Of a stretch of DNA of 64,000 bases, positions 32,078-64,000 are shown piece after piece (positions within the stretch are counted from its first letter, which is position 1; the number at the start of each line of letters is the position of its first letter). The position numbers and the translations under genes are program-made. Under the pieces are notes generated by a model. It did no database searches and had not been told where the DNA came from. It saw only the letters and a list, made by a program, of their open reading frames with translations. The DNA is from an uncultured archaeon (lineage in GTDB: Archaea; Iainarchaeota; Iainarchaeia; Iainarchaeales; DATDZZ01): positions 21,385 through 85,384 of the forward strand of contig CAYJVY010000007.1 in the NCBI GenBank assembly GCA_964373795.1, given 5' to 3'.

Positions 32078-32095
32078 TTTTAATTTTAACTGTTT

Positions 32096-33058
32096 TTAGT
32101 TTACTGTTTTTCTCCAGTAATTCAGTAAATCTTTTAACGTTTGTTCTATTGGAATTTTGGGTTTCCAATTAGTTTCTTTAACAAATTTAGAGTTGTCTCC
32201 TAAAAGTTTTGGAATTAATGCTTGTCTTAATCTTTTTTCATCAACTTTTATTTCAATTTTTTTATTGCTTAATTCTAATAATTTTTTCAATAAATCTTTC
32301 ATTAAAATTCCTTTTCCTGAACAAATATTGTATGCTTCTCCTGCTTTGCATTTTTCTGCTGCAAGCCAATAAGCTTTCACCATGTCTCGAACATCGGTGA
32401 AATCCCTAACTGTTTCAAGGTTTCCTACAAAAATAATTGGTTCTTTTTTGCCTTTTTCAATTTCAACTATTTGATGACACCAATCAGAGTCAACTGTTTT
32501 AGAGTCTCTTTTAAGGCCAATGTGATTAAAAGGACGAATTCGAACAATGTTTAATTCATAGCTTTTAAAGTATTGATATCCGAGTAAATCCATTGCTGCT
32601 TTGCTTGTTCCGTATGGAGTTAAAGGCCTAAATGGCTGTGTTTCTTTTATTGGTAATTCATTGTCATAAACTAATCCATATAATTCAGGACTTGAAATTG
32701 CAATTACTTTAGTTTTATCTGAATATTTTCTTATGCTTTCAAATAAATTAATTGCGCCATCAAAGTTTACTTGAAAGGTTTTTTTAGGGTTTTCAAAAGA
32801 ATCAGGAACAAATGCAACTGCTGCTAAATGAAAAATAATATCTGGTTGAACTTGTTTTATTACTTCGTTTAATTTTTTTTCGTCACAAATATCACATTCA
32901 AACAACTTTATTTTGTTTAAATGTTCTTCTAGTTTTTCAGTGTTTTTCTTATTTCTAATTATTCCGTGAATTTGAGTTTCTTTAACGTTTTTAATTAAAA
33001 ATTCAACTAAATGACTTCCTGCAAACCCTCCAATTCCTGTAATTAAAACTTTTTGCAT
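32096..33058 (-). CDS. GDP-mannose 4,6-dehydratase / GDP-4-keto-6-deoxymannose reductase family SDR (paralog 1)
   Basis: Motifs ITGIGGFAGSHL, YGTSKAAMD, and RPFNHIG, following the Gmd/Rmd extended-SDR pattern. Confidence 0.7.
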   Translation of the reverse strand: MQKVLITGIGGFAGSHLVEFLIKNVKETQIHGIIRNKKNTEKLEEHLNKIKLFECDICDEKKLNEVIKQVQPDIIFHLAAVAFVPDSFENPKKTFQVNFDGAINLFESIRKYSDKTKVIAISSPELYGLVYDNELPIKETQPFRPLTPYGTSKAAMDLLGYQYFKSYELNIVRIRPFNHIGLKRDSKTVDSDWCHQIVEIEKGKKEPIIFVGNLETVRDFTDVRDMVKAYWLAAEKCKAGEAYNICSGKGILMKDLLKKLLELSNKKIEIKVDEKRLRQALIPKLLGDNSKFVKETNWKPKIPIEQTLKDLLNYWRKTVN

Positions 33059-33145
33059 TCAAATCCATTCTCTAAAAATTGCTTCTAATATATCTTAATT
33101 GTTCTTATTAATATTTTTAAACTATTCTAAGTTTATTTTAAGTGA

Positions 33146-33457
33146 ATGGCTGAGTCAAAATTTTCTGCAATAAACAAATGTAGGTCGTGTGGATCGGAAA
33201 ATTTAGAGTTTGTTTTATCTCTTGGAACTCAATTTGTTTCTGCTTTTGTTGATTCAAATTAAATGGGGAAAAAAACTGTGGGAACTTTAATTCCAATTAT
33301 TTCTGAAGAACAAGCAAGAAAAGACAAGCCGAATTATTTTCTTATATTGCCTTGGCATTTTTTGAAAGAATTTAAAGAACGAGAAAAAGATTTCTTGAAT
33401 TCAGGCGGAAAATTTATTGTTCCTCTTCCTGAGTTTAAAATTATTTCTTCTCAATAA
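33146..33457 (+). pseudogene. internally deleted remnant of a TylCIII-like sugar C-methyltransferase
   Basis: N-terminal zinc ribbon (CRSCGSENLEFVLSLG) followed by an in-frame TAA at 33260 and ATG, then a C-terminal segment (PNYFLILPWHFLKEF…GGKFIVPLPEFKII) homologous to the C-termini of ORFs 48793 and 53406. The roughly 300 aa between them are missing. Confidence 0.5.
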
Positions 33458-34466
33458 GTTTAACAATTTTTTTCACGTTTTGAGCTTCATTTTTATGACA
33501 AATTAATATTTTATCATTGCTTTCGACAATAATTAAGTTTTTTACACCAATTAATCCAATTAATTTTTTTCCAAAAACGATGTTATTTTTTGATTCAATT
33601 GCAATTGTTGGAGCAATTAATGTATTTTGATTCTCATCTTTTCCAAATTTTCTTTCCAACGCAGTCCAATCTCCTATGTCATCCCAATCAATTGGCGCTT
33701 CAACAACACTTAAATTTAATTCTTTTTCCATTATCCCATAATCAATTGAAATGTTTTCAAGTCCATTAAAAACTTCTTGCATAATTTTTTCATTAAAATT
33801 TGATTGCTTTATTTTCATTAAACCTTGATATAAGTTTGGCATGAATTGTTTGAATGATTCAAGTATTACTTTTGCTTTAAAAATAAATATACCTGAATTC
33901 CATAAAAAGTTTTTTGATTCAATGAATTCTTCAGCTTTTTCTTTATTGGGTTTTTCTACAAATCTTTTTACTTCAAAAAGTTTGTCTTTAATTTTGTTTC
34001 CTTTTTCAATATATCCATACCCAGTTTCTGGACGAGTAGGAGTTATTCCAATTAAAACAATTTTCCCTTTTTCTGCTTCTTTAAAACCAATTTCTAAGTG
34101 TTCAAAATATTTTTTATTATCTTTATAAGTATGGTCTGATGTTTCAACTAAAATTGTTGCTTCTGGATTTTCACTTAAAATTTTTATAGCACTTAATCCA
34201 ATGCAGGCAGCAGTATTTTTTGCAATTGGCTCTAAAACAAACTTAGCTCTTGGAACGACTTTTTTAATTGGTTCGAACAAGTTTTTTCCAGTTGAAATAA
34301 AAATGTTTTTTTCAGGAATTAATTGAGTTAATCTTTCAACTGTTTCTTCAATCATTGTTTTTTCAGTGAAAATTTTCAAGCATTGTTTTGGAGTTTCCTT
34401 TGTTGAAGCAGGCCAAAATCTTTCACCAAATCCGCCAGCCATTATAACTACAAATCTATTTTGCAT
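33441..34466 (-). CDS. mannose-1-phosphate guanylyltransferase (NDP-sugar pyrophosphorylase)
   Basis: N-terminal VIMAGGFGERFWPAS motif and ManC-type architecture. Confidence 0.8.
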   Translation of the reverse strand: MQNRFVVIMAGGFGERFWPASTKETPKQCLKIFTEKTMIEETVERLTQLIPEKNIFISTGKNLFEPIKKVVPRAKFVLEPIAKNTAACIGLSAIKILSENPEATILVETSDHTYKDNKKYFEHLEIGFKEAEKGKIVLIGITPTRPETGYGYIEKGNKIKDKLFEVKRFVEKPNKEKAEEFIESKNFLWNSGIFIFKAKVILESFKQFMPNLYQGLMKIKQSNFNEKIMQEVFNGLENISIDYGIMEKELNLSVVEAPIDWDDIGDWTALERKFGKDENQNTLIAPTIAIESKNNIVFGKKLIGLIGVKNLIIVESNDKILICHKNEAQNVKKIVKLIEKK

Positions 34467-35424
34467 TTACTTTTTCTCTCCAGTAATTCAGTAAGTCTTT
34501 TAATGTCTGCTCAAATGGGATTTCTGGTTTCCAGCCTGTTTGTTTTATGAATTTAGTTGAATCACATAAAAGTAATGGCACATCACTTGGACGCATTCTT
34601 GAAGGATCTTTAACTATTTCGATTTTTATCTTTGTTAACTTTAAAAGCATTTGTTGTAGTTCCTTCATTGAATAAGCTTTTCCTGTTCCAATATTATATT
34701 CTTCTCCTGGAACCCCTTTTTCTGCAGCTAAATAATATGCTTTAACAATGTCTCTTACGTCAGTGAAATCTCTTCTTGCATCTAAGTTTCCACAGAATAA
34801 TTTTGGTTCTCTTTTTTTTGCTTCAATTTCAGCTATTTGTTTACACCAATTGCTTGCAACATATACTTGTCCTCTTCTAGGCCCTGTGTGATTGAATGCT
34901 CTTGTTCTAACTATTTTTAATCCATAGCTTTTAAAGTATTGATATCCAAATAAATCTGTTGCAACCTTGCTTACTCCGTAAGGACTTAAAGGTCTTAAAG
35001 GATTTGATTCTTTTATTGGAACCTCATTTTCTAAAACTAATCCATATTCTTCACTTGATCCAGCTAAATGAATTTGTGGATTTAATTCTAGTCTTCTTAA
35101 TGCTTCAAGCAAGTTAACTGTTCCAAAAATATTTGAATTAATTGTTTCGTGTGGAGCAAGCCAAGACTTTGGAACAAATGCTTGAGCAGCTAAATGAAAA
35201 ACATAATCTGGTTGAGATTGTTTTAATGAATCCAAAACAGTATTTTGATCAGTTAAATCACATTCAAATAATTTTACTTTATCTAAAATATGTTTAATGT
35301 TGTCTAGTTTTGCATTATATGTTCTAATAGTTCCATGTACTTCTCCTAATTTGTTACTCAAAATATAATCAGCTAAATGGCTTCCTGCAAAGCCTGTAAT
35401 GCCAGTAATAAAAAATTTCTTCAT
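34456..35424 (-). CDS. GDP-mannose 4,6-dehydratase / reductase family SDR (paralog 2)
   Basis: Motifs ITGITGFAGSHL, YGVSKVATD, and RAFNHTGPRRG (the Gmd NHxGPRRG signature). Confidence 0.7.
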   Translation of the reverse strand: MKKFFITGITGFAGSHLADYILSNKLGEVHGTIRTYNAKLDNIKHILDKVKLFECDLTDQNTVLDSLKQSQPDYVFHLAAQAFVPKSWLAPHETINSNIFGTVNLLEALRRLELNPQIHLAGSSEEYGLVLENEVPIKESNPLRPLSPYGVSKVATDLFGYQYFKSYGLKIVRTRAFNHTGPRRGQVYVASNWCKQIAEIEAKKREPKLFCGNLDARRDFTDVRDIVKAYYLAAEKGVPGEEYNIGTGKAYSMKELQQMLLKLTKIKIEIVKDPSRMRPSDVPLLLCDSTKFIKQTGWKPEIPFEQTLKDLLNYWREKVNAK

Positions 35425-36548
35425 TTTTCTTCCTCCAGTTCTTTTTCATAAACCTCAATAAATTTATTAATATTTTCTTTCCAATCAAACCTTTTAACAA
35501 AGTTTGAAGCATTTACGACAATTTTTTGCTTCTCTTTATTGTCTAAATTTATTATTTCATTAATTTTTTTAGCAGCATTTTCATGATTTGAATAATCGAC
35601 TAAAAAACCATTAGTATTATTATTAATTATGGTTCGAAATTGGTTTATATTATTTACGATTGGAATTAATTTTACAGTCATTCCTTCAATTAATGAAATT
35701 CCAAAACCTTCAAATTCTGAAGCCGAAACAAAATATTCCGCTTTTGCAAGTTCTTGTAATAAATCTTTTTCATTTCTTTCACCTAGTAAAAACACGTTTT
35801 TTTGTAATTTGTTTTCTTGAATTAATTCTGTTAACTCGTTAGTTAATCCATGAAAGTCTTTTCCAATTATTTTTAATTTCACGTTTGAATTTAATTTAAT
35901 CAGTTCTGCAAATGTTATAATTAAGTTGTCTACCCGTTTGTTTTTTGAGATTCTTCCAACAAAAATAAACGAATTTTTTTCCTGCTTTTTTTTTAGTTTA
36001 AATTTTTCTAGATTGAATGGAATTTCAATTACTCCTAAATTTTCTTTCTTAACTATCTTCGAAAAACTTTCAAAATCAGTTTTACCAATAGCTAAAATAT
36101 GTGACTTGTTTAGTGAAAACTTTAACCACAAATTAAAATAAATCCATTTTATAATACTTAATTTTCGTGTATGAAATATTCCTCCTCCTGTAGAGACAAC
36201 TAGTTTTTTCGAATGCAATCCAAGCAATTTTGTTAAAATTAAATAATCTGCAAAAAAACCCAATCCGTGAATATGGATTAAATCAAATTCTTTTACAAAA
36301 CTTAAAACCTTTAAAGCGATTTTATAATATTTTAAATCAATAAAAGGAATTCTGTGAATTTTAATGCCTTCTTCAAAAGATGCCTCTAGCAATATTTCAT
36401 CCGAGTTATGGCATTTATTTAAGCAGACAATTTCTGAATAGATTCCTTTTTTATTTAATTCTTTTGCCAACTCCAATACATATGTTTCAATTCCGCCAAT
36501 GCATGGAAAAACATGATTTGTCACATGTAATACTTTGAATTTTTTCAT
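35421..36548 (-). CDS. glycosyltransferase family 4
   Basis: C-terminal EFEGFGISLIEGM motif (the GT4 E-x7-E region). Confidence 0.75.
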   Translation of the reverse strand: MKKFKVLHVTNHVFPCIGGIETYVLELAKELNKKGIYSEIVCLNKCHNSDEILLEASFEEGIKIHRIPFIDLKYYKIALKVLSFVKEFDLIHIHGLGFFADYLILTKLLGLHSKKLVVSTGGGIFHTRKLSIIKWIYFNLWLKFSLNKSHILAIGKTDFESFSKIVKKENLGVIEIPFNLEKFKLKKKQEKNSFIFVGRISKNKRVDNLIITFAELIKLNSNVKLKIIGKDFHGLTNELTELIQENKLQKNVFLLGERNEKDLLQELAKAEYFVSASEFEGFGISLIEGMTVKLIPIVNNINQFRTIINNNTNGFLVDYSNHENAAKKINEIINLDNKEKQKIVVNASNFVKRFDWKENINKFIEVYEKELEEEK

Positions 36549-42977: not shown

Positions 42978-43683
42978 ATGTTAGTGAAAGAAAAACCTTT
43001 TGCAGTTATTATTCCAACCTATAATGAAGCAAATAATGTTGGTAAATTGATTTCTTTAATTTTTCAACAAAAAATAAACGTTAGATTAATTGTAGTGGAT
43101 GATGATTCTCCTGATTTAACTTGGAAAATTGTAAGAAAATTGAATGATAGAAAAATAAAAGTTGTGAGAAGAATTAATGAAAAAGGAGTCGGCAGAGCAA
43201 TTTTAGACGGAATTAAAAAATCTAAGGGAGGGTTAATTCTTTGGATGGATTGTGATTTTGGCATGCGTTCTAAATATATTCCAAAGATGCTGAAAGAAAT
43301 AAAATATTAGGATATTGTAGTTGGTTCCAGATATGTTAAAGGTGGAATGGATAATAGAGATTTTATTAGAAAATTATCTAGTTATATAATAAATTTTTTA
43401 GCAAACATTGTTTTGGAACTTATGGTTTTAGATTATACCACTGGTTTTGTTTTAGCAAAAAAACAGGTTTTTAAAAATGTTTCTTTTGATTCGGCTGGAC
43501 ATGGAGAATATTGTATTGAATTTTTATACAAAGCAAAAAAACAAGGTTTTAAGTTGAAAGAAATTCTTTATGATTAATGAAAGAAGGGTAGGACAGTCCA
43601 AAACAACTAGATATATTTTTTCAATATTTCTACATACATTCAATTATATCAAAAGAATCATCAAAATAAGATTTAACCTTTAA
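42978..43683 (+). pseudogene. disrupted GT2 polyprenyl-phosphate glycosyltransferase (DPM1-like)
   Basis: FAVIIPTYNE…VVDDDSPD…ILWMDCDF, then an in-frame TAG at 43308-43310 directly before the conserved DIVVGSRY. The gene continues to …KEILYD, then the conserved ERRVGQSK block is in the +1 frame (43579 onward), with a stop at 43681. Confidence 0.55.
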
Positions 43684-45063: not shown

Positions 45064-45075
45064 GGTTAATTTTTG

Positions 45076-46872
45076 ATGGACTTTAAAAAATTAGAAACCT
45101 TTCTTCTTTTAAAAAAAAACACTTTTTTACTATTTTTTATAATTTTACTTTATTTATTTTTATTTTTAAATCATTTTTCGACTTTATTTTTTGATGATTT
45201 AGGTTTTGATTTTGCAGGTTATGCACAAAGATATCATTTTGCTTTTCGCGGTTGGGTTCATGAGCTATTAAATGGGGTTCCAGCTTCAACTTTCGATCCT
45301 TTTTTGCCTGCTTTACTGCCACTATTTATCAAATCTTTTGGATTTGGTTCCTTTACTTTGCCTATTTCAATTAGCTTACTTTTAGTGAAATTATTAATTC
45401 CATTAATTTTTGGTTTTATTGCTTTAAAGCTTGGGAAAAACAAGTTTTTTGGAGTTTTGCTTGGATTAATTTTTGTTTTAAATCCAATTACATTTAATTT
45501 TTTAAATAGATATTATGAATTGGTTTCATGGATGTTTTTTATTTTAGCATTTTACTTTATTTATGTTTTTTTGGAATCAAAGGAATTCAATAAAAAATAT
45601 TTCATTTTGTCAATTCTTTTTACAACTTTATCTTCTTTAAGTCATTTAAGTTCACTTTTTTTTCTTTTAAGTTCATCAATTTTTTTAATTACTTCTTTAA
45701 AGGACTTAAAAAAAGTTTTAAGTATTTACATTTTTTCTTTTCTTATTGGAGCGTTTTGGTTTATCCCATTTTTATCTTACATAAATTTCTCTGTTTTAAT
45801 TAATTTAACTGGAAGTAAATTGAAAACCTTTGGAATAATTTCTTCAAGCGTTTTCCTTATAATTATTTTATTTATTTTATTGTTTTGGCTTAATACTGTA
45901 AAAGGCAAAACATCTAGATTAAGAAATTTTGTTTTAGGTATTTTAGTTTTATCTTTGGCTCAATTTTTTTTCAGTGAGTTTTCACTAATTAACAAACCAT
46001 TTATTCACAGTTACCATGTTTTTTACATTTTTGCAATTATTTTTGTTTTACTTAATTATTTTAATTTAAGTCTTTTAACTAAAAAAAATATTGCAGTTTT
46101 TGTAATTCTTTTTTTTGTTCCAACAATCTTTTTGTGGCCAAAGATTTCCGAACAATACTTTCAACTTCAACCAAGATTAAGCAATTATTCTATTTATAAT
46201 GAAAAAATCGATTTTAGTGAAATTGATTTAATTCTTCAAAGAATTCCAAAAAATGTCAGGTATGAATCTTTTCCTTATGATCCAATTATTTCATCTTATT
46301 CTTCCACTAAATATGGTTTGATGAATTTGTTTGGATGGGGTTACAATGCATATCATATAAAAAATAGCTATAAAGCTCCTGAAGAACTGTTAGATCCTAT
46401 AAAAACAACCTGTGAAGACCTGCAAAAATACGTTAAATTCAATGCATTAAAATATTTAATTGTTTTAAATAATTCTGCTTTTAATAAGTCAGTTGAATGT
46501 GGATTTAAAGAAATTCACAAAGATGGAAAGGTTTTACTTGTTGAGTGGCCAGAAGAAGTTAGTTTAATTGAAAATGGAGAATTATTAGAGTTAAAAGAAA
46601 ATTTCATTAAATTTGAAGCTAATCCTCCTTTAACTAAAATGAAAATGAGTTTTTTTCCTCGTTGGAACGCTTATATTGAAGGAAAAAAATTAGAAATAAA
46701 AAATGCAAATCCTGGAATGCAAATGGAAATTTATTCATCTTCAATTGTTGAATTAAGATATGAAAAAACTTTGATTGATTTGATTGGGGTTACATTGTCA
46801 ATAATTTCTTTGCTTGGGTTAATTTTTTATTGGTTTTTTGGACTGCCTAAAATTGAAAGACTAATGCAGTAA
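45076..46872 (+). CDS. large polytopic membrane protein, GT-C-like (candidate glycosyltransferase/oligosaccharyltransferase)
   Basis: About 598 aa. At least 11 transmembrane helices, then a ~230-aa soluble C-terminal domain; a DD-containing first loop (FFDDLGFDF). No canonical WWDYG motif. Confidence 0.4.
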   Translation: MDFKKLETFLLLKKNTFLLFFIILLYLFLFLNHFSTLFFDDLGFDFAGYAQRYHFAFRGWVHELLNGVPASTFDPFLPALLPLFIKSFGFGSFTLPISISLLLVKLLIPLIFGFIALKLGKNKFFGVLLGLIFVLNPITFNFLNRYYELVSWMFFILAFYFIYVFLESKEFNKKYFILSILFTTLSSLSHLSSLFFLLSSSIFLITSLKDLKKVLSIYIFSFLIGAFWFIPFLSYINFSVLINLTGSKLKTFGIISSSVFLIIILFILLFWLNTVKGKTSRLRNFVLGILVLSLAQFFFSEFSLINKPFIHSYHVFYIFAIIFVLLNYFNLSLLTKKNIAVFVILFFVPTIFLWPKISEQYFQLQPRLSNYSIYNEKIDFSEIDLILQRIPKNVRYESFPYDPIISSYSSTKYGLMNLFGWGYNAYHIKNSYKAPEELLDPIKTTCEDLQKYVKFNALKYLIVLNNSAFNKSVECGFKEIHKDGKVLLVEWPEEVSLIENGELLELKENFIKFEANPPLTKMKMSFFPRWNAYIEGKKLEIKNANPGMQMEIYSSSIVELRYEKTLIDLIGVTLSIISLLGLIFYWFFGLPKIERLMQ

Positions 46873-48792: not shown

Positions 48793-50007
48793 TTAAACTA
48801 TTTCTGGAAAAGGAATTGGAATAATAAATTTTCCTTTAAATCCTTTTTCTTTGAGTTTTGGAATAATTATATGTTTAATATTCCAAGCCAAAAGTAAAGC
48901 ATATTCAGGTTGGTCTTCAAATAACTGTTTTTCGTCTATTACTTTAATATGCATTCCAGGACTATATTTTCCTATTTTTAATTCATTTCTTTCACAAAGA
49001 TAATCTAAAATAAATGGCCCTATTTTGCAAAAATTTAGTAAAGTATTTCCTTTTGCTGGAGCGCCTATTCCTACAATTTTTTTGCCTTTTGATTTTAAAT
49101 CATTTACTATGTCTAACAATTTTTGTCTGTTTTCTACAACTTTTTGCCCAAATTTTGTAAAAGTTTCTTTTGTATACAATCCTGCTTTTTCCTCTTCCAT
49201 TAATGTTTTTGAAACATTTTCAATTATTTTGTATGCATTTTTTTTGCAAGCATATACTCTTAGCGAACCTCCATGAGTATCAACTCTTTTAACGTCAAAA
49301 ACATCCAAGCCATATTTATTGAACAAATAAATTAATGGTTTTAATGAATAATACCTTAAATGTTCTGCATAAATTGAGTCGTATTCCATTTCATGAATTA
49401 AATCCAATAAATAATGGGATTCTTCAATGAATACTCCGTCATTTGTTAATAGTAATTTTATTCCTTTCATTAAAGAATCTAGTTCTCTTACATGAGCGAA
49501 AACATTTGTTGCAGTTATAATTTTTGCTTTACCATTTTCTTTTAAAATTTTTTTTGCAGTTTCTTCATTAAAAAATTCAGGTAAAGTTGGAATTCCTTTT
49601 TTTACAGCTATTTTTGCTGCTTCGGATGGATCAACTCCTAATATTTTTATTTTATCAGGTAAATAAGCTTCTAATAGGGTTCCATCGTTTGAACCAATAT
49701 CTATAACAAAGTCTTTTGATGAAAGATTAAATCTTGGAATTGCTTCTTTAACTAGTGCATGAAAATTGTCTTTTAAGTTTTTGTTTTCTCCAGTAAGATA
49801 TACAAAGCTATCAGTGAATAGAATTTTTGGGTCAACTGCATAACCTGTTTGAACTAGTTTACATTTTTCACAAAAAAACAAGTCTAATGGATAATGTGTT
49901 TCAGGTTTTATTAATTCTTCTTTGCTTAAAAATTTATCACTTGGAGGTTGATGCCCTAAAGATAGTACTTTAATTAAGTTTTCGTTTTCACAAACTTGGC
50001 ATTTCAT
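48793..50007 (-). CDS. NDP-hexose C-methyltransferase (TylCIII/NovU-like; Zn-ribbon + class I MTase + C-MT C-terminal domain)
   Basis: CQVCENEN…CEKCKLVQ zinc ribbon, a SAM-binding VIDIGSNDG, and the C-terminal domain FKGKFIIPIPFPEIV. Confidence 0.75.
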   Translation of the reverse strand: MKCQVCENENLIKVLSLGHQPPSDKFLSKEELIKPETHYPLDLFFCEKCKLVQTGYAVDPKILFTDSFVYLTGENKNLKDNFHALVKEAIPRFNLSSKDFVIDIGSNDGTLLEAYLPDKIKILGVDPSEAAKIAVKKGIPTLPEFFNEETAKKILKENGKAKIITATNVFAHVRELDSLMKGIKLLLTNDGVFIEESHYLLDLIHEMEYDSIYAEHLRYYSLKPLIYLFNKYGLDVFDVKRVDTHGGSLRVYACKKNAYKIIENVSKTLMEEEKAGLYTKETFTKFGQKVVENRQKLLDIVNDLKSKGKKIVGIGAPAKGNTLLNFCKIGPFILDYLCERNELKIGKYSPGMHIKVIDEKQLFEDQPEYALLLAWNIKHIIIPKLKEKGFKGKFIIPIPFPEIV

Positions 50008-50009
50008 TT

Positions 50010-51002
50010 TTATTTCCCCTTTTTATTAAAGTATTTTTCATACCATTTAAAAGTTTTTCCAAGTCCTTCATCTAAATTTGTTTTTGGTTTAAAACCTAAA
50101 TCTACAAGCCTTGATATATCTGGGCATCTTCTTGAAACACTTCCTTTTGGAGCTGGATGAATGTCTATTTCTGGATTTACGTTTGCAATTGTGAAAATTT
50201 TTTTTGCTAAATTCATTATTTTGATTTCTTCATCACTTCTTCCAATGTGAATTGTTTGAGCAGTTGTTTTAGGGCTTTCCATTACAATTTGTGTTGCTTC
50301 AATTGCGTCATCAATGAAGCAAAAAGTTCTAGTTTCTTGCCCTCCAAATATTTTGAATGGATTTTCTTTTTTCACTATTCGTTCAATAAATTGAGGAATT
50401 ACATGTTCTTCCCCCATTCGCGGACCATAAATATTGTGATATCTGATAATGCAAAAATTCATTTTATGCAAATGGTGGTAACAATTTAATGTTACTTCAT
50501 TCATTATTTTGCTTGCGCCGTATGACCATCTAACATTTGATGGATTATCAATGCAGAGGGGAACGTTTTCTGGAGTTGGAATTGGGAATTTTTTTCCTAA
50601 AATCTTTAAAGTTCCTGCATAGGTTTCAGAACTTGAAGAAAACAATATTTTTCCGTGCTTTGATTTAACAAACCAATCCAATAAATTGATTGTTCCAATT
50701 ACTCCTACTTTAATTACTTTGTCTGGAATTTTGTAAAAATTTTCAGTTCCATTAATTGCAGCTAAATGGTAAACAAAATCATATTTTTTTTCTAATTTTG
50801 AAAATTCATTTGCATTAGTAATATCCATTTTAATGAAATCAGTGTTTTTGTTTTCTAAGAGTTGTTTAAACTCTTTATCTTTTTTTCCTCTAGCAAAATT
50901 ATCCATTATGGTTACATGGTATTTTTCTGCTAATTTTTTGGATAAATGAAATCCAATAAATCCTGCTCCGCCTGTAACTAAAACAGTTTTTAATGTATTC
51001 AT
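50010..51002 (-). CDS. NAD-dependent sugar epimerase/dehydratase (extended SDR)
   Basis: [23 protein letters not shown]. Its first 17 codons plus about 55 bp of upstream sequence are nearly identical to those of the rmlB gene at 63337. Confidence 0.75.
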   Translation of the reverse strand: MNTLKTVLVTGGAGFIGFHLSKKLAEKYHVTIMDNFARGKKDKEFKQLLENKNTDFIKMDITNANEFSKLEKKYDFVYHLAAINGTENFYKIPDKVIKVGVIGTINLLDWFVKSKHGKILFSSSSETYAGTLKILGKKFPIPTPENVPLCIDNPSNVRWSYGASKIMNEVTLNCYHHLHKMNFCIIRYHNIYGPRMGEEHVIPQFIERIVKKENPFKIFGGQETRTFCFIDDAIEATQIVMESPKTTAQTIHIGRSDEEIKIMNLAKKIFTIANVNPEIDIHPAPKGSVSRRCPDISRLVDLGFKPKTNLDEGLGKTFKWYEKYFNKKGK

Positions 51003-51057
51003 GTTATTATTTAACTAGAAGTTAAAGTTTTTATATCCTAGTAATACAAACTTGTAA
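50953..51057 (-). repeat. promoter + 5'-CDS cassette; inverted copy of 63281..63387
   Basis: About 105 bp at roughly 93% identity, covering the upstream region and codons 1-17 ([17 protein letters not shown]). Compared by eye. Confidence 0.6.
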
Positions 51058-51168
51058 TACTTGTTTTAAGTAATTGTTTGAGTTTTTGTACTAATAAACC
51101 TTTTTAAAGTTTTATTGAATTAACTGTACTATTAAATTTTAATTAAAAATAATTAATAAATAAAAAAA

Positions 51169-53352: not shown

Positions 53353-53405
53353 TTTGAATTCAAATAGTATTTTAAAGTTTTTTAAGCACAGTCTTGGTTG
53401 TTGTT

Positions 53406-54665
53406 ATGAGCAAATTTTTTGAAGTAAAGGAATGCAGAATTTGTAATTCAACTAATTTGAAAAAATATTTGGATTTAGGTGAAATGCCTTTAGCAAATGC
53501 ATTGGTTGATCTTTCAAGTAAAGAAAAAGACTTGTTTTTTCCATTGCAGTTATTGTTTTGCAAGAATTGCTTTTTGACTCAATTAAGTGTAGTTGTAAAT
53601 CCTGAAATATTGTTTTCAAATTATCCTTATCAAACATCTATTTCGAGTACTTTTCAAAAGCATTTTTTTGAAATGTCTAAAGAGGTTGCAAAACTTTTTC
53701 CCAAAAAAAATGAATGCCTTGTATTAGATATTGCAAGCAACGATGGCTGTTTATTAGAGCAATTCAAAAAAACTGGTTTCAAAGTTTTAGGAGTTGAACC
53801 CGCAAAAAATTTAGCCAAAATTGCTGAAGAAAAAGGAATTCCAACTATTCCCGAGTTTTGGAATGAGGGCGTAAGAGAAAAAATTATTTCAAATTATGGC
53901 AAGCCACTGGTTGTAACTGCTACAAATGTTTTTGCACATGTTCACGATGTTAAATCTTTTGCTGAAAATGTTAAAGAGGTTTTAACAACTGATGGAGTTT
54001 TTATTCTTGAATTTCCTTATGCATTAAATTTGTTTGAGAAAACAGAGTTTGATACAATTTATCATGAACATTTATCTTATTTTTTAGTTCATCCTTTAAT
54101 TACTTTGTTTAATGGCCTTGAAATGCAGGTATTTAATATTCAAGAAATTCCAATTCACGGAGGAAGTATTAGAGTTTTTGTTAAAAAATCTGAAAATAAA
54201 AAAATTAAAGTGAATGAAAAAGTAATTAACGAGTTTTTGGAAAGAGAAAAAAAGCATGGCCTGAATGAATTTAAATCATATGCTTCTTTTGCAGTAAAAG
54301 TTGGAAAAGTAAAAAAAGCTTTCACTAATTTGTTGAATAAATTAAAAGGTGAAAAAAAATTTGTTGCAGGTTTTGCAGCTGCAGCCAAAGCAAGTACTTT
54401 AATGCATTATTGTAAAGTTGGAAAAGAGCATATTAGGTTTATTATTGATGACGCTCCATTTAAACAAAACAAGGCTTTTTCAGGAAATCGAGTTCCAATT
54501 TATTCAAGGGCAAGGCTTGCTGATAACCCGGATTATTTGATCCTGTTTGCTTGGACTATTGCTGGAGAATTGATTAAAAAAACTAGAGAGCGAGGATTTA
54601 AAGGCAAATTTATTATTCCAATTCCTTTTCCAAGAATTATTTTGAGTGAATCTGAATTGCTTTGA
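53406..54665 (+). CDS. NDP-hexose C-methyltransferase (TylCIII-like), paralog 2
   Basis: CRICNSTN…CKNCFLTQ, VLDIASNDG, and a C-terminal FKGKFIIPIPFPRII. About 35-40% identical to ORF 48793. The ORF track starts at TTG 53394; the ATG is at 53406. Confidence 0.75.
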   Translation: MSKFFEVKECRICNSTNLKKYLDLGEMPLANALVDLSSKEKDLFFPLQLLFCKNCFLTQLSVVVNPEILFSNYPYQTSISSTFQKHFFEMSKEVAKLFPKKNECLVLDIASNDGCLLEQFKKTGFKVLGVEPAKNLAKIAEEKGIPTIPEFWNEGVREKIISNYGKPLVVTATNVFAHVHDVKSFAENVKEVLTTDGVFILEFPYALNLFEKTEFDTIYHEHLSYFLVHPLITLFNGLEMQVFNIQEIPIHGGSIRVFVKKSENKKIKVNEKVINEFLEREKKHGLNEFKSYASFAVKVGKVKKAFTNLLNKLKGEKKFVAGFAAAAKASTLMHYCKVGKEHIRFIIDDAPFKQNKAFSGNRVPIYSRARLADNPDYLILFAWTIAGELIKKTRERGFKGKFIIPIPFPRIILSESELL

Positions 54666-60762: not shown

Positions 60763-60813
60763 TTTCTAATAACTCAAATTAATTTATATTAATATTTAAT
60801 TTTGGTGATAAAA

Positions 60814-61872
60814 ATGAGTGAAAAAAAAGCTTTACTTACTGGTGGTGCAGGATTTATTGGAACAAATGCTGCCAATTATTTTTTGAAAAAGGGGTGGGAA
60901 ATAACTATATTAGATAACTTTTCTAGAAGGGGCACAAGAGAAAATGCTAATTGGTTAAAAAATCTTTTTCCAGAAAAACTTAAAATAGTTGAAGCAGATA
61001 TTGTTACAAATTTTAATGTGTTAAAAAGTAAAGTTAAAGAAAGTGATTTAATTATTCATTTAGCTGGACAGGTTGCTGTAACTACTTCTATTTTAAATCC
61101 GAGAGACGATTTTAAAGTGAATGCCTTAGGAACATTTAATGTTTTAGAAGCTTTAAGAAAAACAGATTCAGATGCTACATTAGTCTATCCCTCGACCAAT
61201 AAAGTTTATGGAAAAATGCAACAACTTGAAGTTCAAGAAAAAGAAACGCGCTATATATATAAAGATTATTCTAGTGGAATTCCCGAATCAATGCAGTTAG
61301 ATTTTTTTTCCCCTTATGGATGTTCTAAAGGAACTGGGGATCAATATGTGCGAGATTATGAAAGAATTTATGGTTTAAATACCGTTGTATTTAGACAAAG
61401 CTGTATTTATGGTGAAAGGCAATTTGGAATTGAAGACCAGGGATGGATTGCATGGTTTGTTATTTCCTCAATATTAGGCAAGCAAATTCATATTTATGGA
61501 AATGGAAAACAAGTTAGAGATGTATTATATGTAAATGATTTAATTGAAGCATATGAATTGGCACATCAAAAAATTAGTTTTTGTAGAGGACAGATTTTCA
61601 ATATTGGAGGAGGAACAGACAGATCAATGAGTTTATTAGAGTTACTTAGTTTTTTGGAAGAACTTGTTGGGAGAAAAATGAATTATATTTTTGAAGATCA
61701 ACGACCCGGAGATCAATTAATTTATATTAGTGATATTTCTAAAGTTCACGATAAGCTTGGTTGGACTCCTAAAACAAGTGTAAATGAAGGTGTGAAAAAA
61801 TTAGTTGATTGGGTTTTTGAAAACCAAAAGTTAGTGAAAACTGTTTTAGCAGATTTATTGAAAAAAGTTTAA
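60814..61872 (+). CDS. NAD-dependent epimerase, CDP-paratose 2-epimerase-like
   Basis: [17 protein letters not shown]…ILDNFSRRGTRENANWL, YGCSKGTGDQY. Confidence 0.65.
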   Translation: MSEKKALLTGGAGFIGTNAANYFLKKGWEITILDNFSRRGTRENANWLKNLFPEKLKIVEADIVTNFNVLKSKVKESDLIIHLAGQVAVTTSILNPRDDFKVNALGTFNVLEALRKTDSDATLVYPSTNKVYGKMQQLEVQEKETRYIYKDYSSGIPESMQLDFFSPYGCSKGTGDQYVRDYERIYGLNTVVFRQSCIYGERQFGIEDQGWIAWFVISSILGKQIHIYGNGKQVRDVLYVNDLIEAYELAHQKISFCRGQIFNIGGGTDRSMSLLELLSFLEELVGRKMNYIFEDQRPGDQLIYISDISKVHDKLGWTPKTSVNEGVKKLVDWVFENQKLVKTVLADLLKKV

Positions 61873-61938
61873 AGTAATGATCATTTTTTATGAGGGCATT
61901 ACTCAATTTTAAAAACTTTACTAGAATCTATTAAGTAC

Positions 61939-62325
61939 GTGGGCAGAACTTTTCTTATTACGGGTGGTGCAGGATTTATTGGTTCGAATTATGTTGAATT
62001 TCATTTAAATAAATATCCTGAAGATGAGGTAATTGTTTTGGATAAATTAACTTATGCTGGTAGAAAAGAAAATTTAAAAGAATTTGAGTCAAACTCAAAT
62101 TTTGAATTTGTTAAAGGAGACATTTGTAATAAAAAATTGGTTGAAAAACTGGTTAAAGATGTTGATGTTGTAATTAATTTTGCTGCTGAAACTATGACAA
62201 TATGCAACAAGAATCATACTTCAAAACACAACTATGCAACCAACTACTCTAACTACAAACCAGTTAAGCCAACATGCTCAACAAAACCACAAGTTATGCA
62301 ACAGAGCATCACTCCTCGCCGATGA
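61939..62325 (+). pseudogene. 5' fragment of dTDP-glucose 4,6-dehydratase (rmlB) duplicate
   Basis: Codons 11-85 (61969-62193) are nucleotide-identical to the intact rmlB at 63373-63597. After that the reading frame runs into unrelated C/A-rich sequence. Confidence 0.55.
61969..62193 (+). repeat. 225-bp perfect direct repeat, copy 1
   Basis: Identical to 63373..63597, an offset of 1404 bp. Compared by eye. Confidence 0.7.
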
Positions 62326-62452
62326 ATTAATTTTTTAATCCTTTCTATGCAAACTTTGTGATTAGGTTATGGTGGAGAAGAAAAGAATAATGAAAAAATG
62401 GCGAATCTTTCTTGAAACCATTTTTAAATGTAGAAAAAACAGAGTTGTTTAA

Positions 62453-63127
62453 ATGAAAACCAATCAAACATTTGAAAGCAAAGATCTTAAGGAGCAAAAA
62501 GAATATGCAGAACATTATGAGGAATTTTCAGAACTGGAACTATTTAATATAAAAATTCTTAAAAAAATAGCCAAACACCTAAAAGAGCCCATACTTGATG
62601 TTGGTTGTTTTACTGGGAGGAAAGCAGCGTTTTTTTATGAAAATGGGTATAAGGATATTTCTGGATGTGATATTTCAAATAACTCCATCAAACAAGCAAA
62701 AAAATCATACCCCTTCATAAACTTCTTCCAACATGATATGGTAAAAAGTTCAACAAGTGAAAAATACAATTCAGTAATCTGCTTTCAAACAATTGAGCAC
62801 ATTTTTAACTATCATAGATTCTTAAAAAATATTGTTGGTTCATTGAACAATGGAGGAGTGGCGGTTATTGAAACGCCCAATGCGTGCAGCATAATTACTA
62901 GAGCAAGGCTACTACTTGGTGATGCTAGGAATTTTACAGGAAACATTGATGAGTCACATATAAGGTTTTTCAGTAAGACCTGTCTAGAGAAAGCAATGGA
63001 AAAACAAGGGATGACTATTGTTCAGTCGTTTGGCTACAATATTAGGCCAATTGTCAAACCAATTGAGTTTATTTCTTCAACTAGTTGGAAAGAAGTGCTT
63101 GTTGTAATTGCAAAAAAACAACTCTAA
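62453..63127 (+). CDS. class I SAM-dependent methyltransferase
   Basis: ILDVGCFTGRKAAFF (motif I), GCDIS (post-I), and VICFQTIEHI (motif II/III). Its codon usage is more C-rich than that of neighbouring genes. Confidence 0.7.
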   Translation: MKTNQTFESKDLKEQKEYAEHYEEFSELELFNIKILKKIAKHLKEPILDVGCFTGRKAAFFYENGYKDISGCDISNNSIKQAKKSYPFINFFQHDMVKSSTSEKYNSVICFQTIEHIFNYHRFLKNIVGSLNNGGVAVIETPNACSIITRARLLLGDARNFTGNIDESHIRFFSKTCLEKAMEKQGMTIVQSFGYNIRPIVKPIEFISSTSWKEVLVVIAKKQL

Positions 63128-63280
63128 AAAACTCACAAATTTTTTTTATGCTGATTTAGGCGTCCCAGTCTAGAAAAATTGTGAAACTCCTGTTGTAATT
63201 AAAATCTAGATTTATATTACCAAATAAAACTTTAAAGAGGTTATTAGTACAAAAACTCAAATTATTTCCCCCAACTTATG

Positions 63281-63387
63281 TTGCAAATTTGTATTACTAG
63301 GATATAAAAACTTTAACTCACTAGTTAAATAATAATATGAATACATTAAAAACTGTTTTAGTTACAGGGGGAGCAGGATTTATTGGT
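63281..63387 (+). repeat. promoter + 5'-CDS cassette; inverted copy of 50953..51057
   Basis: See the paired repeat feature at 50953..51057. Confidence 0.6.
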
Positions 63388-64000
63388 TCGAATTATGTTG
63401 AATTTCATTTAAATAAATATCCTGAAGATGAGGTAATTGTTTTGGATAAATTAACTTATGCTGGTAGAAAAGAAAATTTAAAAGAATTTGAGTCAAACTC
63501 AAATTTTGAATTTGTTAAAGGAGACATTTGTAATAAAAAATTGGTTGAAAAACTGGTTAAAGATGTTGATGTTGTAATTAATTTTGCTGCTGAAACTCAT
63601 GTTGATAGATCAATTCAAGGACAAGCAGAGTTTCTTGAAACAAATATTATTGGAACTTACAATTTATTGGAAGCCTCACGAAATTCAAGTGTTAAAAAAT
63701 TTTTGCAGATTTCAACTGACGAAGTTTATGGTTCGGTGGAAAAAGGTTCTAGCTTAGAAACGGATGAATTAAAGCCTCGAAATCCTTATTCTGCTTCAAA
63801 AGCAGCAGCTGATAGGTTTGCTTATTCTTATTTTGCAACTTATGGATTGCCTGTTTTAATTACTCGTGCTTCAAATAATTATGGTCCAAAACAATTTCCG
63901 GAAAAGGTTTTACCTTTGTTTATTACAAATTTGTTAAAAGGAAAAAAAGTTCCATTGTATGGTGATGGAAAAAATGTTCGAGACTGGCTTTACGTGGAAG
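63337..64000 (+). CDS. rmlB: dTDP-glucose 4,6-dehydratase (partial, runs off the window end)
   Basis: [23 protein letters not shown]…DKLTYAGRKENL…ETHVDRSI…YSASKAAADRF…GDGKNVRDWLYVE. Confidence 0.8.
   Translation, partial: MNTLKTVLVTGGAGFIGSNYVEFHLNKYPEDEVIVLDKLTYAGRKENLKEFESNSNFEFVKGDICNKKLVEKLVKDVDVVINFAAETHVDRSIQGQAEFLETNIIGTYNLLEASRNSSVKKFLQISTDEVYGSVEKGSSLETDELKPRNPYSASKAAADRFAYSYFATYGLPVLITRASNNYGPKQFPEKVLPLFITNLLKGKKVPLYGDGKNVRDWLYVE
63373..63597 (+). repeat. 225-bp perfect direct repeat, copy 2 (inside intact rmlB)
   Basis: Identical to 61969..62193. Confidence 0.7.

What the first reader, a model, noticed from the sequence alone, without database searches (positions are those of the whole stretch)
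50953..51057. Shared promoter + first-17-codon cassette on two different SDR genes in inverted orientation
The upstream region and the first 51 coding nucleotides ([17 protein letters not shown]) of the minus-strand SDR gene 50010..51002 are about 93% identical to the upstream region and 5' end of the plus-strand rmlB at 63337 (63281-63387). Downstream of the GxGxxG codons the two genes are unrelated paralogs.

This indicates exchange of 5' ends, and so of expression signals, between paralogous nucleotide-sugar genes. It may also mark inversion endpoints for the intervening ~12 kb.
Basis: seen in the sequence. Interest (0 to 1): 0.55.

Follow-up and report, generated by a model that had tools for sequence, protein, structure and literature searches.

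The report
Copied promoter and start on rmlB
In an uncultured DPANN-type archaeon's sugar-biosynthesis island, the rhamnose-pathway gene rmlB carries a copy of a neighbouring gene's promoter, start codon and first codons, joined in frame at the cofactor-binding motif; it is a real rearrangement scar but of a known kind, promoter capture.

Summary
A control on all six Rossmann-type genes in the window shows that codon bias explains only the 20-nt GxGxxG stretch.

It is SDR-like up to GCAGGATTTATTGG. After that it is 225/225 identical to a truncated rmlB 5' fragment 1.4 kb upstream (61939-62193), which has its own promoter-like box and a GTG start. Between the two lie a 988-bp segment with an orphan methyltransferase gene, flanked by a 7-nt direct repeat (TGAAACT), and a 7-nt rmlB remnant.

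Best reading: a one-way copy of an archaeal leaderless promoter plus N-terminal codons into rmlB, re-joined at the GxGxxG microhomology, with partial duplication of rmlB, followed by a second insertion. The direction of copying is probable, not proven. It was not a reciprocal exchange. I found no evidence for inversion: the 12-kb segment is in the conserved orientation and no recombinase gene is nearby. No related strain exists in public data, so an assembly artefact cannot be excluded.

The parts
50953..51002 (-). First 50 nt of the SDR CDS ([17 protein letters not shown]), the coding part of cassette copy S. It ends in GCAGGATTTATTGG (50953-50966).
   Evidence: 49/50 identical to 63337-63386. 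The genes are unrelated after nt 50.
51003..51050 (-). Proximal promoter block of copy S. It contains an A-rich BRE-like run plus a TATA-like box (ATAAAAACTTTAAC) whose AAAACTTTAA core lies 29-20 nt upstream of the ATG, and the palindrome TTAACT-N3-AGTTAA between the box and the ATG. There is no Shine-Dalgarno sequence.
   Evidence: 46/49 identical to 63288-63336. The box position matches the window-wide peak of TATA-like hexamers at -35..-26. Palindrome.
51051..51076 (-). Variable patch between the two conserved blocks of copy S.
   Evidence: 13/26 identical to 63262-63287.
51077..51148 (-). Distal conserved block of copy S (AATAAAACTTTAAAAAGGTTTATTAGTACAAAAACTCAAA, holding a second BRE/TATA-like AAAACTTTAA) plus a weaker far-distal stretch. 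It reaches to within 21 nt of the divergent dehydrogenase start at 51169.
   Evidence: 38/41 and 22/32 identical to the R copy. Extent from local alignment.
50010..51002 (-). Extended-SDR gene (330 aa), the first gene of a conserved SDR + C-methyltransferase operon. Its specificity is unassigned.
   Evidence: Pfam Epimerase and GDP_Man_Dehyd. Below every NCBIfam equivalog cut-off. The operon is conserved in L002.
61873..61938 (+). Upstream region of the rmlB fragment, with its own TATA-like box (TTTTAAAAACTTTAC) 32-24 nt before the GTG. It loosely resembles the cassette promoter (ATTACT...TAAAAACTTTA...CTAG).
   Evidence: Read directly. 78% match over 23 nt (D7).
61939..62193 (+). Truncated rmlB 5' fragment (GTG start, [21 protein letters not shown]...), probably the displaced native 5' end. 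Positions 61969-62193 are 225/225 identical to rmlB 63373-63597. The ORF then runs into foreign sequence and stops at 62325.
   Evidence: (D1). Pfam covers only the N-terminal third of the SDR fold.
62194..63181 (+). 988-bp inserted segment X'. It has a C/A-rich left part with three TATGCAAC copies, then a 224-aa class-I SAM methyltransferase gene (62453..63127) with its own TATA-like box. It is flanked by the 7-nt direct repeat TGAAACT (62187-62193 and 63182-63188). It has no terminal inverted repeats and no transposase.
   Evidence: GC is 33-39% against 28-30% in the flanks. The methyltransferase has no close homologue among 5.8 billion proteins.
63182..63195 (+). TGAAACT + CCTGTTG, read as a remnant of the rmlB sequence that spans the fragment's break point (TGAAACT|CATGTTG, 63591-63604). 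It lies immediately left of where S/R homology begins.
   Evidence: It is the only other match with up to 2 mismatches to that 14-mer in the whole window. Alignment of the three junctions.
63193..63336 (+). Cassette copy R, non-coding part: far-distal, distal, variable and proximal promoter blocks, including the palindrome TTAACT-N4-AGTTAA.
63337..63386 (+). Cassette copy R, coding part: ATG plus the first 16.7 codons of rmlB. Positions 63373-63386 (GCAGGATTTATTGG, CDS nt 37-50) form the crossover zone shared by the SDR gene, the rmlB fragment and rmlB.
63337..64000 (+). Chimeric but intact rmlB (dTDP-glucose 4,6-dehydratase), cut by the window end. The full 323-aa product is P0123.
   Evidence: TIGR01181 equivalog 468 bits against a cut-off of 365. 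STDEVYG and YSASK motifs are present in P0123.

Best explanation
The shared element is an archaeal leaderless expression module: BRE/TATA box, start codon and the first 12-16 codons. It belongs to the SDR + C-methyltransferase operon, or to a close relative of that operon's promoter region, and was copied one-way into rmlB.

Step 1. A break or stalled replication inside rmlB, just after CDS nt ~262-268 (...GAAACTCATGTTG), was repaired by copying about 180 nt of an SDR-type intergenic region plus the SDR 5' codons. Synthesis then re-entered rmlB at the 14-20-nt GxGxxG-coding microhomology (GCAGGATTTATTGG). This produced: native 5' end - rmlB nt 31-262 - cassette - rmlB nt 37 to end. The result is an upstream rmlB stub and a downstream full-length, in-frame rmlB driven by the SDR-type promoter, with an ATG instead of a GTG start.

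Step 2. A 988-bp segment carrying an orphan methyltransferase gene was inserted into the stub at TGAAACT, leaving a 7-nt direct repeat.

Consequence. In a leaderless system the transcription start coincides with the start codon, so a promoter can be moved onto another gene only together with the start codon and by an in-frame join inside the coding region. The Rossmann-motif codons sit 20-30 nt into every extended-SDR gene and are 90-100% identical between paralogues in this AT-rich genome, so they provide such a joining site. rmlB and the SDR operon now share promoter elements and are probably co-expressed.

Shown: the sequence anatomy, the junction positions and the intactness of rmlB. Inferred: the order of the events, the direction of copying, the repair mechanism, promoter activity and co-regulation.
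For: (1) Three-way mosaic with sharp boundaries at the shared 14-mer. S/R are 49/50 identical before the motif's end and unrelated after it. Fragment and rmlB are 18/31 identical before the motif and 225/225 after it.

(2) The 14-mer spanning the fragment's break point recurs (13/14) only once elsewhere in 64 kb, at the left edge of the R cassette. The two-step model predicts this; the rival models do not.

(3) On the S side the homology covers essentially the whole divergent intergenic region of a syntenically conserved operon. On the R side it stops 66 nt short of the preceding gene.

(4) The fragment has an rmlB-typical N-terminus length (8 residues before GGAGFIG, like the three closest rmlB relatives at 79-81% identity) and its own TATA-like box directly after the epimerase gene.

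(5) The archaeal leaderless reading. TATA-like hexamers peak at -35..-26 from start codons. SD-like motifs occur in 3/32 genes that head a transcription unit against 10/28 operon-internal genes. AAAACTTTAA occurs 11 times against 4.3 expected. The named homologues are DPANN archaea. For background, archaeal TATA boxes lie about 28 nt upstream of the transcription start (PMC8553660), and leaderless mRNAs dominate in several archaea (PMC4983044).

(6) rmlB is intact and passes the equivalog cut-off.

(7) The inserted segment differs in composition from its flanks and its gene is an orphan.
Against: The two cassette copies differ by about 15%, in a patchy pattern (13/26 in one patch), whereas the two rmlB 'A' copies are 225/225 identical. 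One event using the resident SDR locus as template followed by neutral decay does not explain this. It needs either a non-resident (foreign or lost) SDR-type template, or later homogenisation of the direct repeats and of the proximal cassette block by gene conversion.

The cassette N-terminus (10 residues before GG) is longer than in SDR relatives (7-8) and in rmlB relatives (8). '...KTVLVTGG' matches rmlB relatives P0125 and P0126 exactly, so protein comparison does not fix the polarity.

There is only one assembly. No reads, related strains or transcript data were available. The remnant argument rests on a 13/14 match whose significance is positional (my rough estimate is about 1e-4), not on a formal test.
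Confidence: 0.55

Rival explanations
1. Reverse polarity. The cassette is native to rmlB (or to an imported methyltransferase-rmlB unit), and gene conversion copied it onto the SDR operon. The stub at 61939 is the remnant of a resident rmlB displaced when that unit arrived.
For: The closest rmlB relatives begin [16 protein letters not shown], matching the cassette's [13 protein letters not shown] exactly, whereas SDR relatives have K(K/T)ALV(S/T)GG. The inserted segment looks compositionally foreign.
Against: An incoming rmlB would have to be 225/225 identical to the resident gene after the motif yet 18/31 before it. This model does not explain the rmlB-derived TGAAACTCcTGTTG at the left edge of the R cassette. 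The S copy fills the whole intergenic region of a syntenically conserved divergent operon pair.
Confidence: 0.15
2. Assembly artefact. The 225-nt exact repeat led the assembler to string together two strain variants, one with native rmlB directly after the epimerase gene and one with methyltransferase-cassette-rmlB. If so, the stub and the full-length gene are not on the same chromosome.
For: The source is a single 95.6-kb MAG contig. A 225-nt exact repeat is longer than typical assembly k-mers. No independent assembly contains the region.
Against: Every junction must exist physically in some molecule, including rmlB nt 255 joined to the foreign sequence and the cassette joined to rmlB nt 37. 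The chimeric rmlB and a truncated rmlB are therefore real either way; only their linkage would change. The TGAAACT direct repeat and the rmlB remnant tie the two ends of the insert to a single rmlB break point.
Confidence: 0.12
3. The inverted repeats are the end points of a reversible inversion of the roughly 12-kb segment between them.
For: The arms are about 195 nt long, with a 99-nt core at about 96% identity, 12,044 nt apart in inverted orientation. That is enough in principle for homologous recombination.
Against: No alternative arrangement was retrievable. No recombinase or transposase was found among the ORFs scanned in 30-64 kb. The orientation of the dehydrogenase and SPASM radical-SAM genes relative to the SDR operon is the same as in relative L002. 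Both arms include the promoter and the start codon, so flipping would not switch either gene. The repeats are already explained as a by-product of promoter copying.
Confidence: 0.07
4. An old segmental duplication is retained in two places because the blocks are a shared regulatory module (promoter, operator palindrome and upstream site) of a sugar-pathway regulon. On this view conservation, not recency, explains the high identity.
For: The conservation is patchy: blocks at 93-98% separated by a 50% patch. The palindrome TTAACT-N3/4-AGTTAA lies between the TATA box and the ATG, and the only indel falls in its spacer. A second BRE/TATA-like motif sits in the distal block.
Against: Sixteen shared codons show a single synonymous difference, which is unexpected for an old duplication unless the 5' coding sequence is itself constrained. 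The blocks occur nowhere else in 64 kb, although many sugar genes are present. The two copies do not share an RNA fold. This rival concerns maintenance, not origin, and is compatible with the best explanation.
Confidence: 0.2

Closest known systems
Promoter capture by partial duplication, e.g. the rnk-citG duplication that placed citT behind the rnk promoter in the E. coli long-term evolution experiment (PMC5918244)
   Same: A duplication junction puts a gene copy behind a foreign promoter. It creates a truncated or chimeric ORF at the junction and leaves direct repeats that can collapse by homologous recombination.
   Different: Here the captured promoter comes from a locus 12 kb away in inverted orientation, so this is a templated insertion rather than a simple tandem duplication. 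The join is inside the coding region and in frame, and start codon and N-terminal codons travel with the promoter, as a leaderless gene requires. The host is an uncultured archaeon and no fitness or expression data exist.
Microhomology-mediated template switching (FoSTeS/MMBIR-type complex insertions) described for human structural variants (PMC5120786, PMC11293582)
   Same: The signature is a short templated insertion from a nearby locus, in inverted orientation, flanked by a duplication of the target, with microhomology at the joins (14-20 nt at one join, 2-3 nt at the other).
   Different: The mechanism is inferred from a single end product. It was not tested here whether this lineage has the required repair pathway. 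The divergence between template and copy is unexplained.
Recombination and gene remnants in bacterial surface-polysaccharide loci (O-antigen and capsule clusters carrying rml genes, e.g. PMC1391919, PMC5293828). The link to rml genes as recombination sites is from my own background knowledge and was not read in these papers.
   Same: Both are large variable glycan islands with many paralogous nucleotide-sugar genes, truncated genes and inserted foreign genes. This island also has a split GT2 gene at 42978-43577.
   Different: Those systems mostly shuffle whole genes through flanking homology or IS elements. Here the junction is a short conserved cofactor-motif coding stretch, what moved is an expression module, and no IS is present.
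Invertible promoter switches (invertons) of Bacteroides capsule loci (from background knowledge)
   Same: Inverted repeats and a promoter within a polysaccharide locus.
   Different: In an inverton the promoter lies between short inverted repeats and a site-specific recombinase flips it. Here the promoters lie inside the repeats, the intervening 12 kb holds 11 genes or gene fragments, and no recombinase was found. This locus is not a member of that kind.

Membership tests
Archaeal BRE/TATA promoter with leaderless mRNA | A TATA-like box roughly 24-30 nt upstream of the transcription start, preceded by an A/purine-rich BRE | tested here: met
   The AAAACTTTAA core lies 29-20 nt before the ATG in both copies. 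Window-wide, TATA-like hexamers peak at -35..-26 from start codons. The position agrees with PMC8553660.
Archaeal BRE/TATA promoter with leaderless mRNA | No Shine-Dalgarno sequence; the transcript starts at or within 5 nt of the start codon | tested here: inconclusive
   There is no SD-like motif upstream of either ATG, and only 3/32 genes that head a transcription unit have one. The transcription start itself cannot be mapped with these tools.
Archaeal BRE/TATA promoter with leaderless mRNA | The host is an archaeon | tested here: inconclusive
   The named close homologues are Woesearchaeota, Nanoarchaeota, Micrarchaeota and Diapherotrites MAGs. A geranylgeranyl-reductase-like gene is present. 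The window has no rRNA or ribosomal-protein marker, and the source record carries no name.
dTDP-glucose 4,6-dehydratase (RmlB, TIGR01181) | Score above the curated equivalog cut-off | tested here: met
   P0123 scores 468.3 bits against a cut-off of 365.1.
dTDP-glucose 4,6-dehydratase (RmlB, TIGR01181) | GxGxxG NAD-binding motif and the catalytic T-D-E and YxxxK motifs are intact in the chimera | tested here: met
   [14 protein letters not shown] and YSASK were read in P0123.
Promoter capture by duplication | A new junction places a pre-existing promoter upstream of a complete gene copy, with part of the target duplicated | tested here: met
   The cassette joins rmlB at CDS nt 37-50. There is a 225-nt exact duplicate upstream, plus a 14-nt remnant.
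Promoter capture by duplication | The captured promoter drives expression of the gene | not testable with these tools
   No transcript data are available.
Invertible DNA switch (inverton or shufflon) | The promoter or variable segment lies between the inverted repeats, so that flipping changes connectivity | tested here: not met
   Both promoters and both start codons lie inside the repeat arms.
Invertible DNA switch (inverton or shufflon) | A site-specific recombinase is encoded nearby | tested here: not met
   No recombinase or transposase family was found among the ORFs scanned in 30-64 kb.
Invertible DNA switch (inverton or shufflon) | Both orientations are observed in a population | not testable with these tools
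   There are no reads, and no related contig holds the cassette.
Insertion sequence or transposon (for the 988-bp segment) | Target-site duplication | tested here: met
   The 7-nt direct repeat TGAAACT is at 62187-62193 and 63182-63188.
Insertion sequence or transposon (for the 988-bp segment) | Terminal inverted repeats and a transposase gene | tested here: not met
   There are no terminal inverted repeats at the ends. The only gene is a methyltransferase.
Structured cis-regulatory RNA (riboswitch or leader) | An Rfam match, or a fold shared by both copies | tested here: not met
   The only Rfam hit in the window is one tRNA. The two copies give different minimum-energy folds, with z-scores of -2.5 and -1.9.

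The most novel reading that the evidence does not exclude
In archaea that use leaderless mRNAs, the GxGxxG-coding stretch at the very start of extended-SDR genes acts as a general in-frame recombination site. It would let promoter + start-codon modules be shuffled among paralogous nucleotide-sugar genes, giving a recurrent route for rewiring surface-glycan pathways rather than a single accident. This window holds six such genes with a 14-20-nt near-identical motif in both orientations, and one completed event.
Probability: 0.15. Interest if true: 0.6.

Novelty: new variant of a known kind. Interest (0 to 1): 0.36.

Why it matters
This is a clean, base-pair-resolved example of how a gene can acquire another gene's expression signals when transcription and translation start at the same nucleotide. 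The promoter cannot move alone, so it travels with the start codon and is spliced in frame at a conserved cofactor-binding motif.

If such joins are common, they would help explain how DPANN and other archaea diversify their large surface-glycan islands. They would also warn annotators that identical N-termini on different SDR enzymes can be recombination scars.

On its own it is a single event in a single metagenome-assembled contig, with no expression or population data. Its present value is descriptive and modest.

Tried and rejected
- Exact-protein look-ups of the SDR, the methyltransferase and P0001 found no contig on record.
- The 23-nt cassette core is absent from GTDB species genomes and from JGI metagenomes, so no sister strain is available to test inversion or the ancestral state.
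- The methyltransferase has no close homologue, so the donor context cannot be traced.
- Upstream DNA of the nearest relatives (L001 for rmlB, L002 for the SDR) does not align with the cassette, so it gives no polarity information.
- N-terminal comparison of 18 SDR and 16 rmlB relatives was ambiguous for polarity.
- A degenerate back-translation of MNTLKTVLVTGG found only an unrelated high-GC bacterial SDR, a chance convergence.
- A protein-based scan of genome contigs returned only 24-28% identical bacterial paralogues.
- A structured RNA was rejected: no Rfam hit and no shared fold.
- A dispersed repeat or mobile element was rejected as the origin of the cassette: it has only two copies, and no transposase or recombinase is present.
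- Short 10-12-nt matches between the R cassette and the rmlB coding region (D5 and D6) were judged compatible with chance in AT-rich DNA and were not used.

Full report
**Observation.** The inverted similarity is real.
- It is longer than reported: S 51148->50953 aligns with R 63193->63386, about 195 nt, 169/200 = 84.5%.
- It is patchy: coding nt 1-50, 49/50 (one synonymous GGC/GGG difference); proximal non-coding block, 46/49; a 26-nt patch, 13/26; distal block, 38/41; far-distal stretch, 22/32.
- The 30-nt and 21-nt cores occur only at these two sites in 64 kb, with about 0 expected by chance.

**Control for codon bias.** The window holds six genes with the GGxGxxG-type start. Their 20-nt stretch GGNGGNGCAGGATTTATTGG is 90-100% identical in every pair, so that part is background. 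The 30 nt before it are 100% identical only for the SDR/rmlB pair (0.40-0.63 for all other pairs). The 60 nt after it are 100% identical only for a different pair, rmlB and an upstream fragment.

rmlB (63337->) is a three-part mosaic.
- Up to GCAGGATTTATTGG (63373-63386, CDS nt 37-50) it follows the SDR gene.
- From that 14-mer onward it is 225/225 identical to 61969-62193. That stretch is part of a truncated rmlB 5' fragment (ORF 61939..62325) with a different N-terminus (GTG start, [21 protein letters not shown]...) and its own TATA-like box, directly after the epimerase-like gene 60802..61872.
- At 62194 the fragment runs into unrelated, C/A-rich sequence. A 224-aa methyltransferase gene follows (62453..63127). 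It has its own TATA-like box, no close homologue among 5.8 billion proteins and a different base composition from its flanks.
- The rmlB 14-mer that spans the fragment's break point (TGAAACT|CATGTTG, 63591-63604) has only one other near-match in the window: TGAAACTCCTGTTG at 63182-63195, immediately left of where S/R homology begins.
- The layout is therefore: native 5' end, A (...TGAAACT), X' (988 bp), TGAAACT, CcTGTTG, cassette, A, CATGTTG, rest of rmlB.

**Host and promoter type.**
- GC content is about 29%.
- The source proteins come from a single 95.6-kb NCBI MAG contig. The nearest relatives are 73% (SDR) and 79-81% (rmlB) identical, and the named ones are DPANN archaea.
- Across the window, TATA-like hexamers peak 35-26 nt upstream of start codons. 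SD-like motifs occur in 3/32 genes that head a transcription unit against 10/28 operon-internal genes. AAAACTTTAA is enriched, 11 observed against 4.3 expected, and sits at about -30..-20 of several genes.
- This is the archaeal leaderless pattern: the TATA box lies about 28 nt upstream of the transcription start (PMC8553660), and leaderless mRNAs are the majority in several archaea (PMC4983044).
- The cassette is therefore a BRE/TATA box, the start codon and the first codons. It also holds a palindrome, TTAACT-N3/4-AGTTAA, between the box and the ATG, and a second BRE/TATA-like motif in the distal block. The function of these last two features is unknown.
- No Rfam family matches and the two copies share no RNA fold.

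**Genes.**
- rmlB is a bona fide dTDP-glucose 4,6-dehydratase: TIGR01181 468 bits against a cut-off of 365, with the catalytic motifs intact.
- The 330-aa SDR passes no equivalog cut-off. It heads a conserved operon with a C-methyltransferase, divergent from a nucleotide-sugar dehydrogenase. The same arrangement, with orthologues at 58-73% identity, is found in relative L002.
- The surrounding 32-64 kb region is a glycan island: nucleotidyltransferases, at least 9 extended-SDR genes, glycosyltransferases, two radical-SAM enzymes, and RmlC-like and RmlD genes. No recombinase or transposase was detected among the ORFs scanned.

**Mechanism (inferred).**
- Step 1: a templated, microhomology-mediated insertion. 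Synthesis left rmlB after ...CATGTTG, copied an SDR-type intergenic region plus about 36-50 nt of coding sequence, and re-entered rmlB at the GxGxxG microhomology. This duplicated rmlB nt 37-268.
- Step 2: insertion of the 988-bp methyltransferase segment at TGAAACT, leaving a 7-nt direct repeat.
- The outcome is an intact rmlB with the SDR-type promoter and an ATG start in place of a GTG start, plus an rmlB stub.
- In Haloferax, GUG-start leaderless transcripts have about two-fold lower coverage (PMC4983044), so the swap may raise rmlB expression. This is speculative.
- The nearest precedent is promoter capture by duplication, as in rnk-citT (PMC5918244). The junction signature resembles template-switch complex insertions (PMC5120786, PMC11293582).

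**Polarity.** Three points favour copying from an SDR-type locus into rmlB:
- the rmlB remnant at the left edge of the R cassette;
- full coverage of the conserved divergent intergenic region on the S side;
- the survival of an rmlB-typical alternative 5' end.

N-terminal comparisons do not settle it: rmlB relatives P0125 and P0126 also have [13 protein letters not shown].

**Unresolved.** The cassette copies differ by about 15%, while the rmlB duplicates are identical. Either the template was not the resident SDR locus, or gene conversion has homogenised some blocks.

**Inversion.** It is untested and unsupported. No alternative arrangement is retrievable. The orientation is conserved relative to L002. 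No recombinase was found. There would be no regulatory consequence, because both arms carry the promoter and the start codon.

**Artefact risk.** There is a single MAG contig with a 225-nt exact repeat. Each junction must exist in some molecule, so the chimeric rmlB and a truncated rmlB are real, but their linkage needs read support.

**Verdict.** This is a real and well-resolved rearrangement scar, an archaeal leaderless variant of promoter capture. It is moderately interesting as an example. It is neither an exchange nor a demonstrated inversion switch.

Noticed in passing
window 62194-62325: The left end of the inserted segment is strongly C/A-rich (A 0.42, C 0.29, G 0.11), and TATGCAAC occurs three times within about 100 nt (62201, 62233, 62295). 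There is no ORF of its own and no match to anything. Its origin is unknown.
   Followed up: partly
window 42978-43577: A GT2 glycosyltransferase appears split: a 110-aa N-terminal ORF (42978..43310, Pfam positions 2-104 of 168), then a 76-aa ORF in another frame (43347..43577) that I read as its C-terminal part (it had no Pfam hit of its own). It is probably a pseudogene and a second sign of decay in this island.
   Followed up: partly
window 51104-51113 and 63226-63235: A second BRE/TATA-like AAAACTTTAA lies about 100-110 nt upstream of both ATGs, inside the conserved distal block. It could be an alternative upstream promoter giving a leadered transcript, or a factor-binding site.
   Followed up: partly
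window 51011-51025 and 63313-63328 (also 35831-35846): The palindrome TTAACT-N3/4-AGTTAA lies between the TATA-like box and the start codon in both cassette copies, and the only indel between the copies is in its spacer. There are three matches in the window against 0.17 expected; the third is inside a GT4 coding region. It is a candidate operator.
   Followed up: partly
window 48793-50007 and 53394-54665: Two paralogous TylC3-type C-methyltransferase genes (Methyltransf_13/14) lie in inverted orientation, each next to an extended-SDR gene, with 70-nt and 54-nt stretches at about 80% nucleotide identity. These are ordinary paralogy, not recent copies.
   Followed up: partly
window 32090-35424: Two tandem GDP-mannose-4,6-dehydratase-like paralogues (32096..33058 and 34456..35424) are separated by a mannose-1-phosphate guanylyltransferase-like gene. 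They share 123-182-nt stretches at 74-77% identity, 2366 nt apart.
   Followed up: no
window 45073-46872: A 599-aa polytopic membrane protein has no Pfam hit. It lies between RmlC-like and GT2 genes and could be the island's oligosaccharyl- or glycosyl-transferase or polymerase.
   Followed up: no
window 24888-28181: A 1097-aa protein with Big_13, Big_7 and fn3 Ig-like domains is a probable surface protein and a possible glycosylation target. Internal repeats lie at 26933-27957.
   Followed up: no
window 63253-63283 vs 63453-63505: Short matches occur between the R cassette and the rmlB coding region (AAACTCAAATT 11/11; AACTTATGTTG 10/11), partly inside the variable patch. They could be traces of iterative template switching or chance matches in AT-rich DNA.
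   Followed up: no
L006 2682-2716: An unrelated high-GC bacterial SDR begins MNTFKTVLVTGGAGYVG. N-termini of this form therefore arise independently, and protein-level N-terminal identity alone should not be read as recombination.
   Followed up: yes
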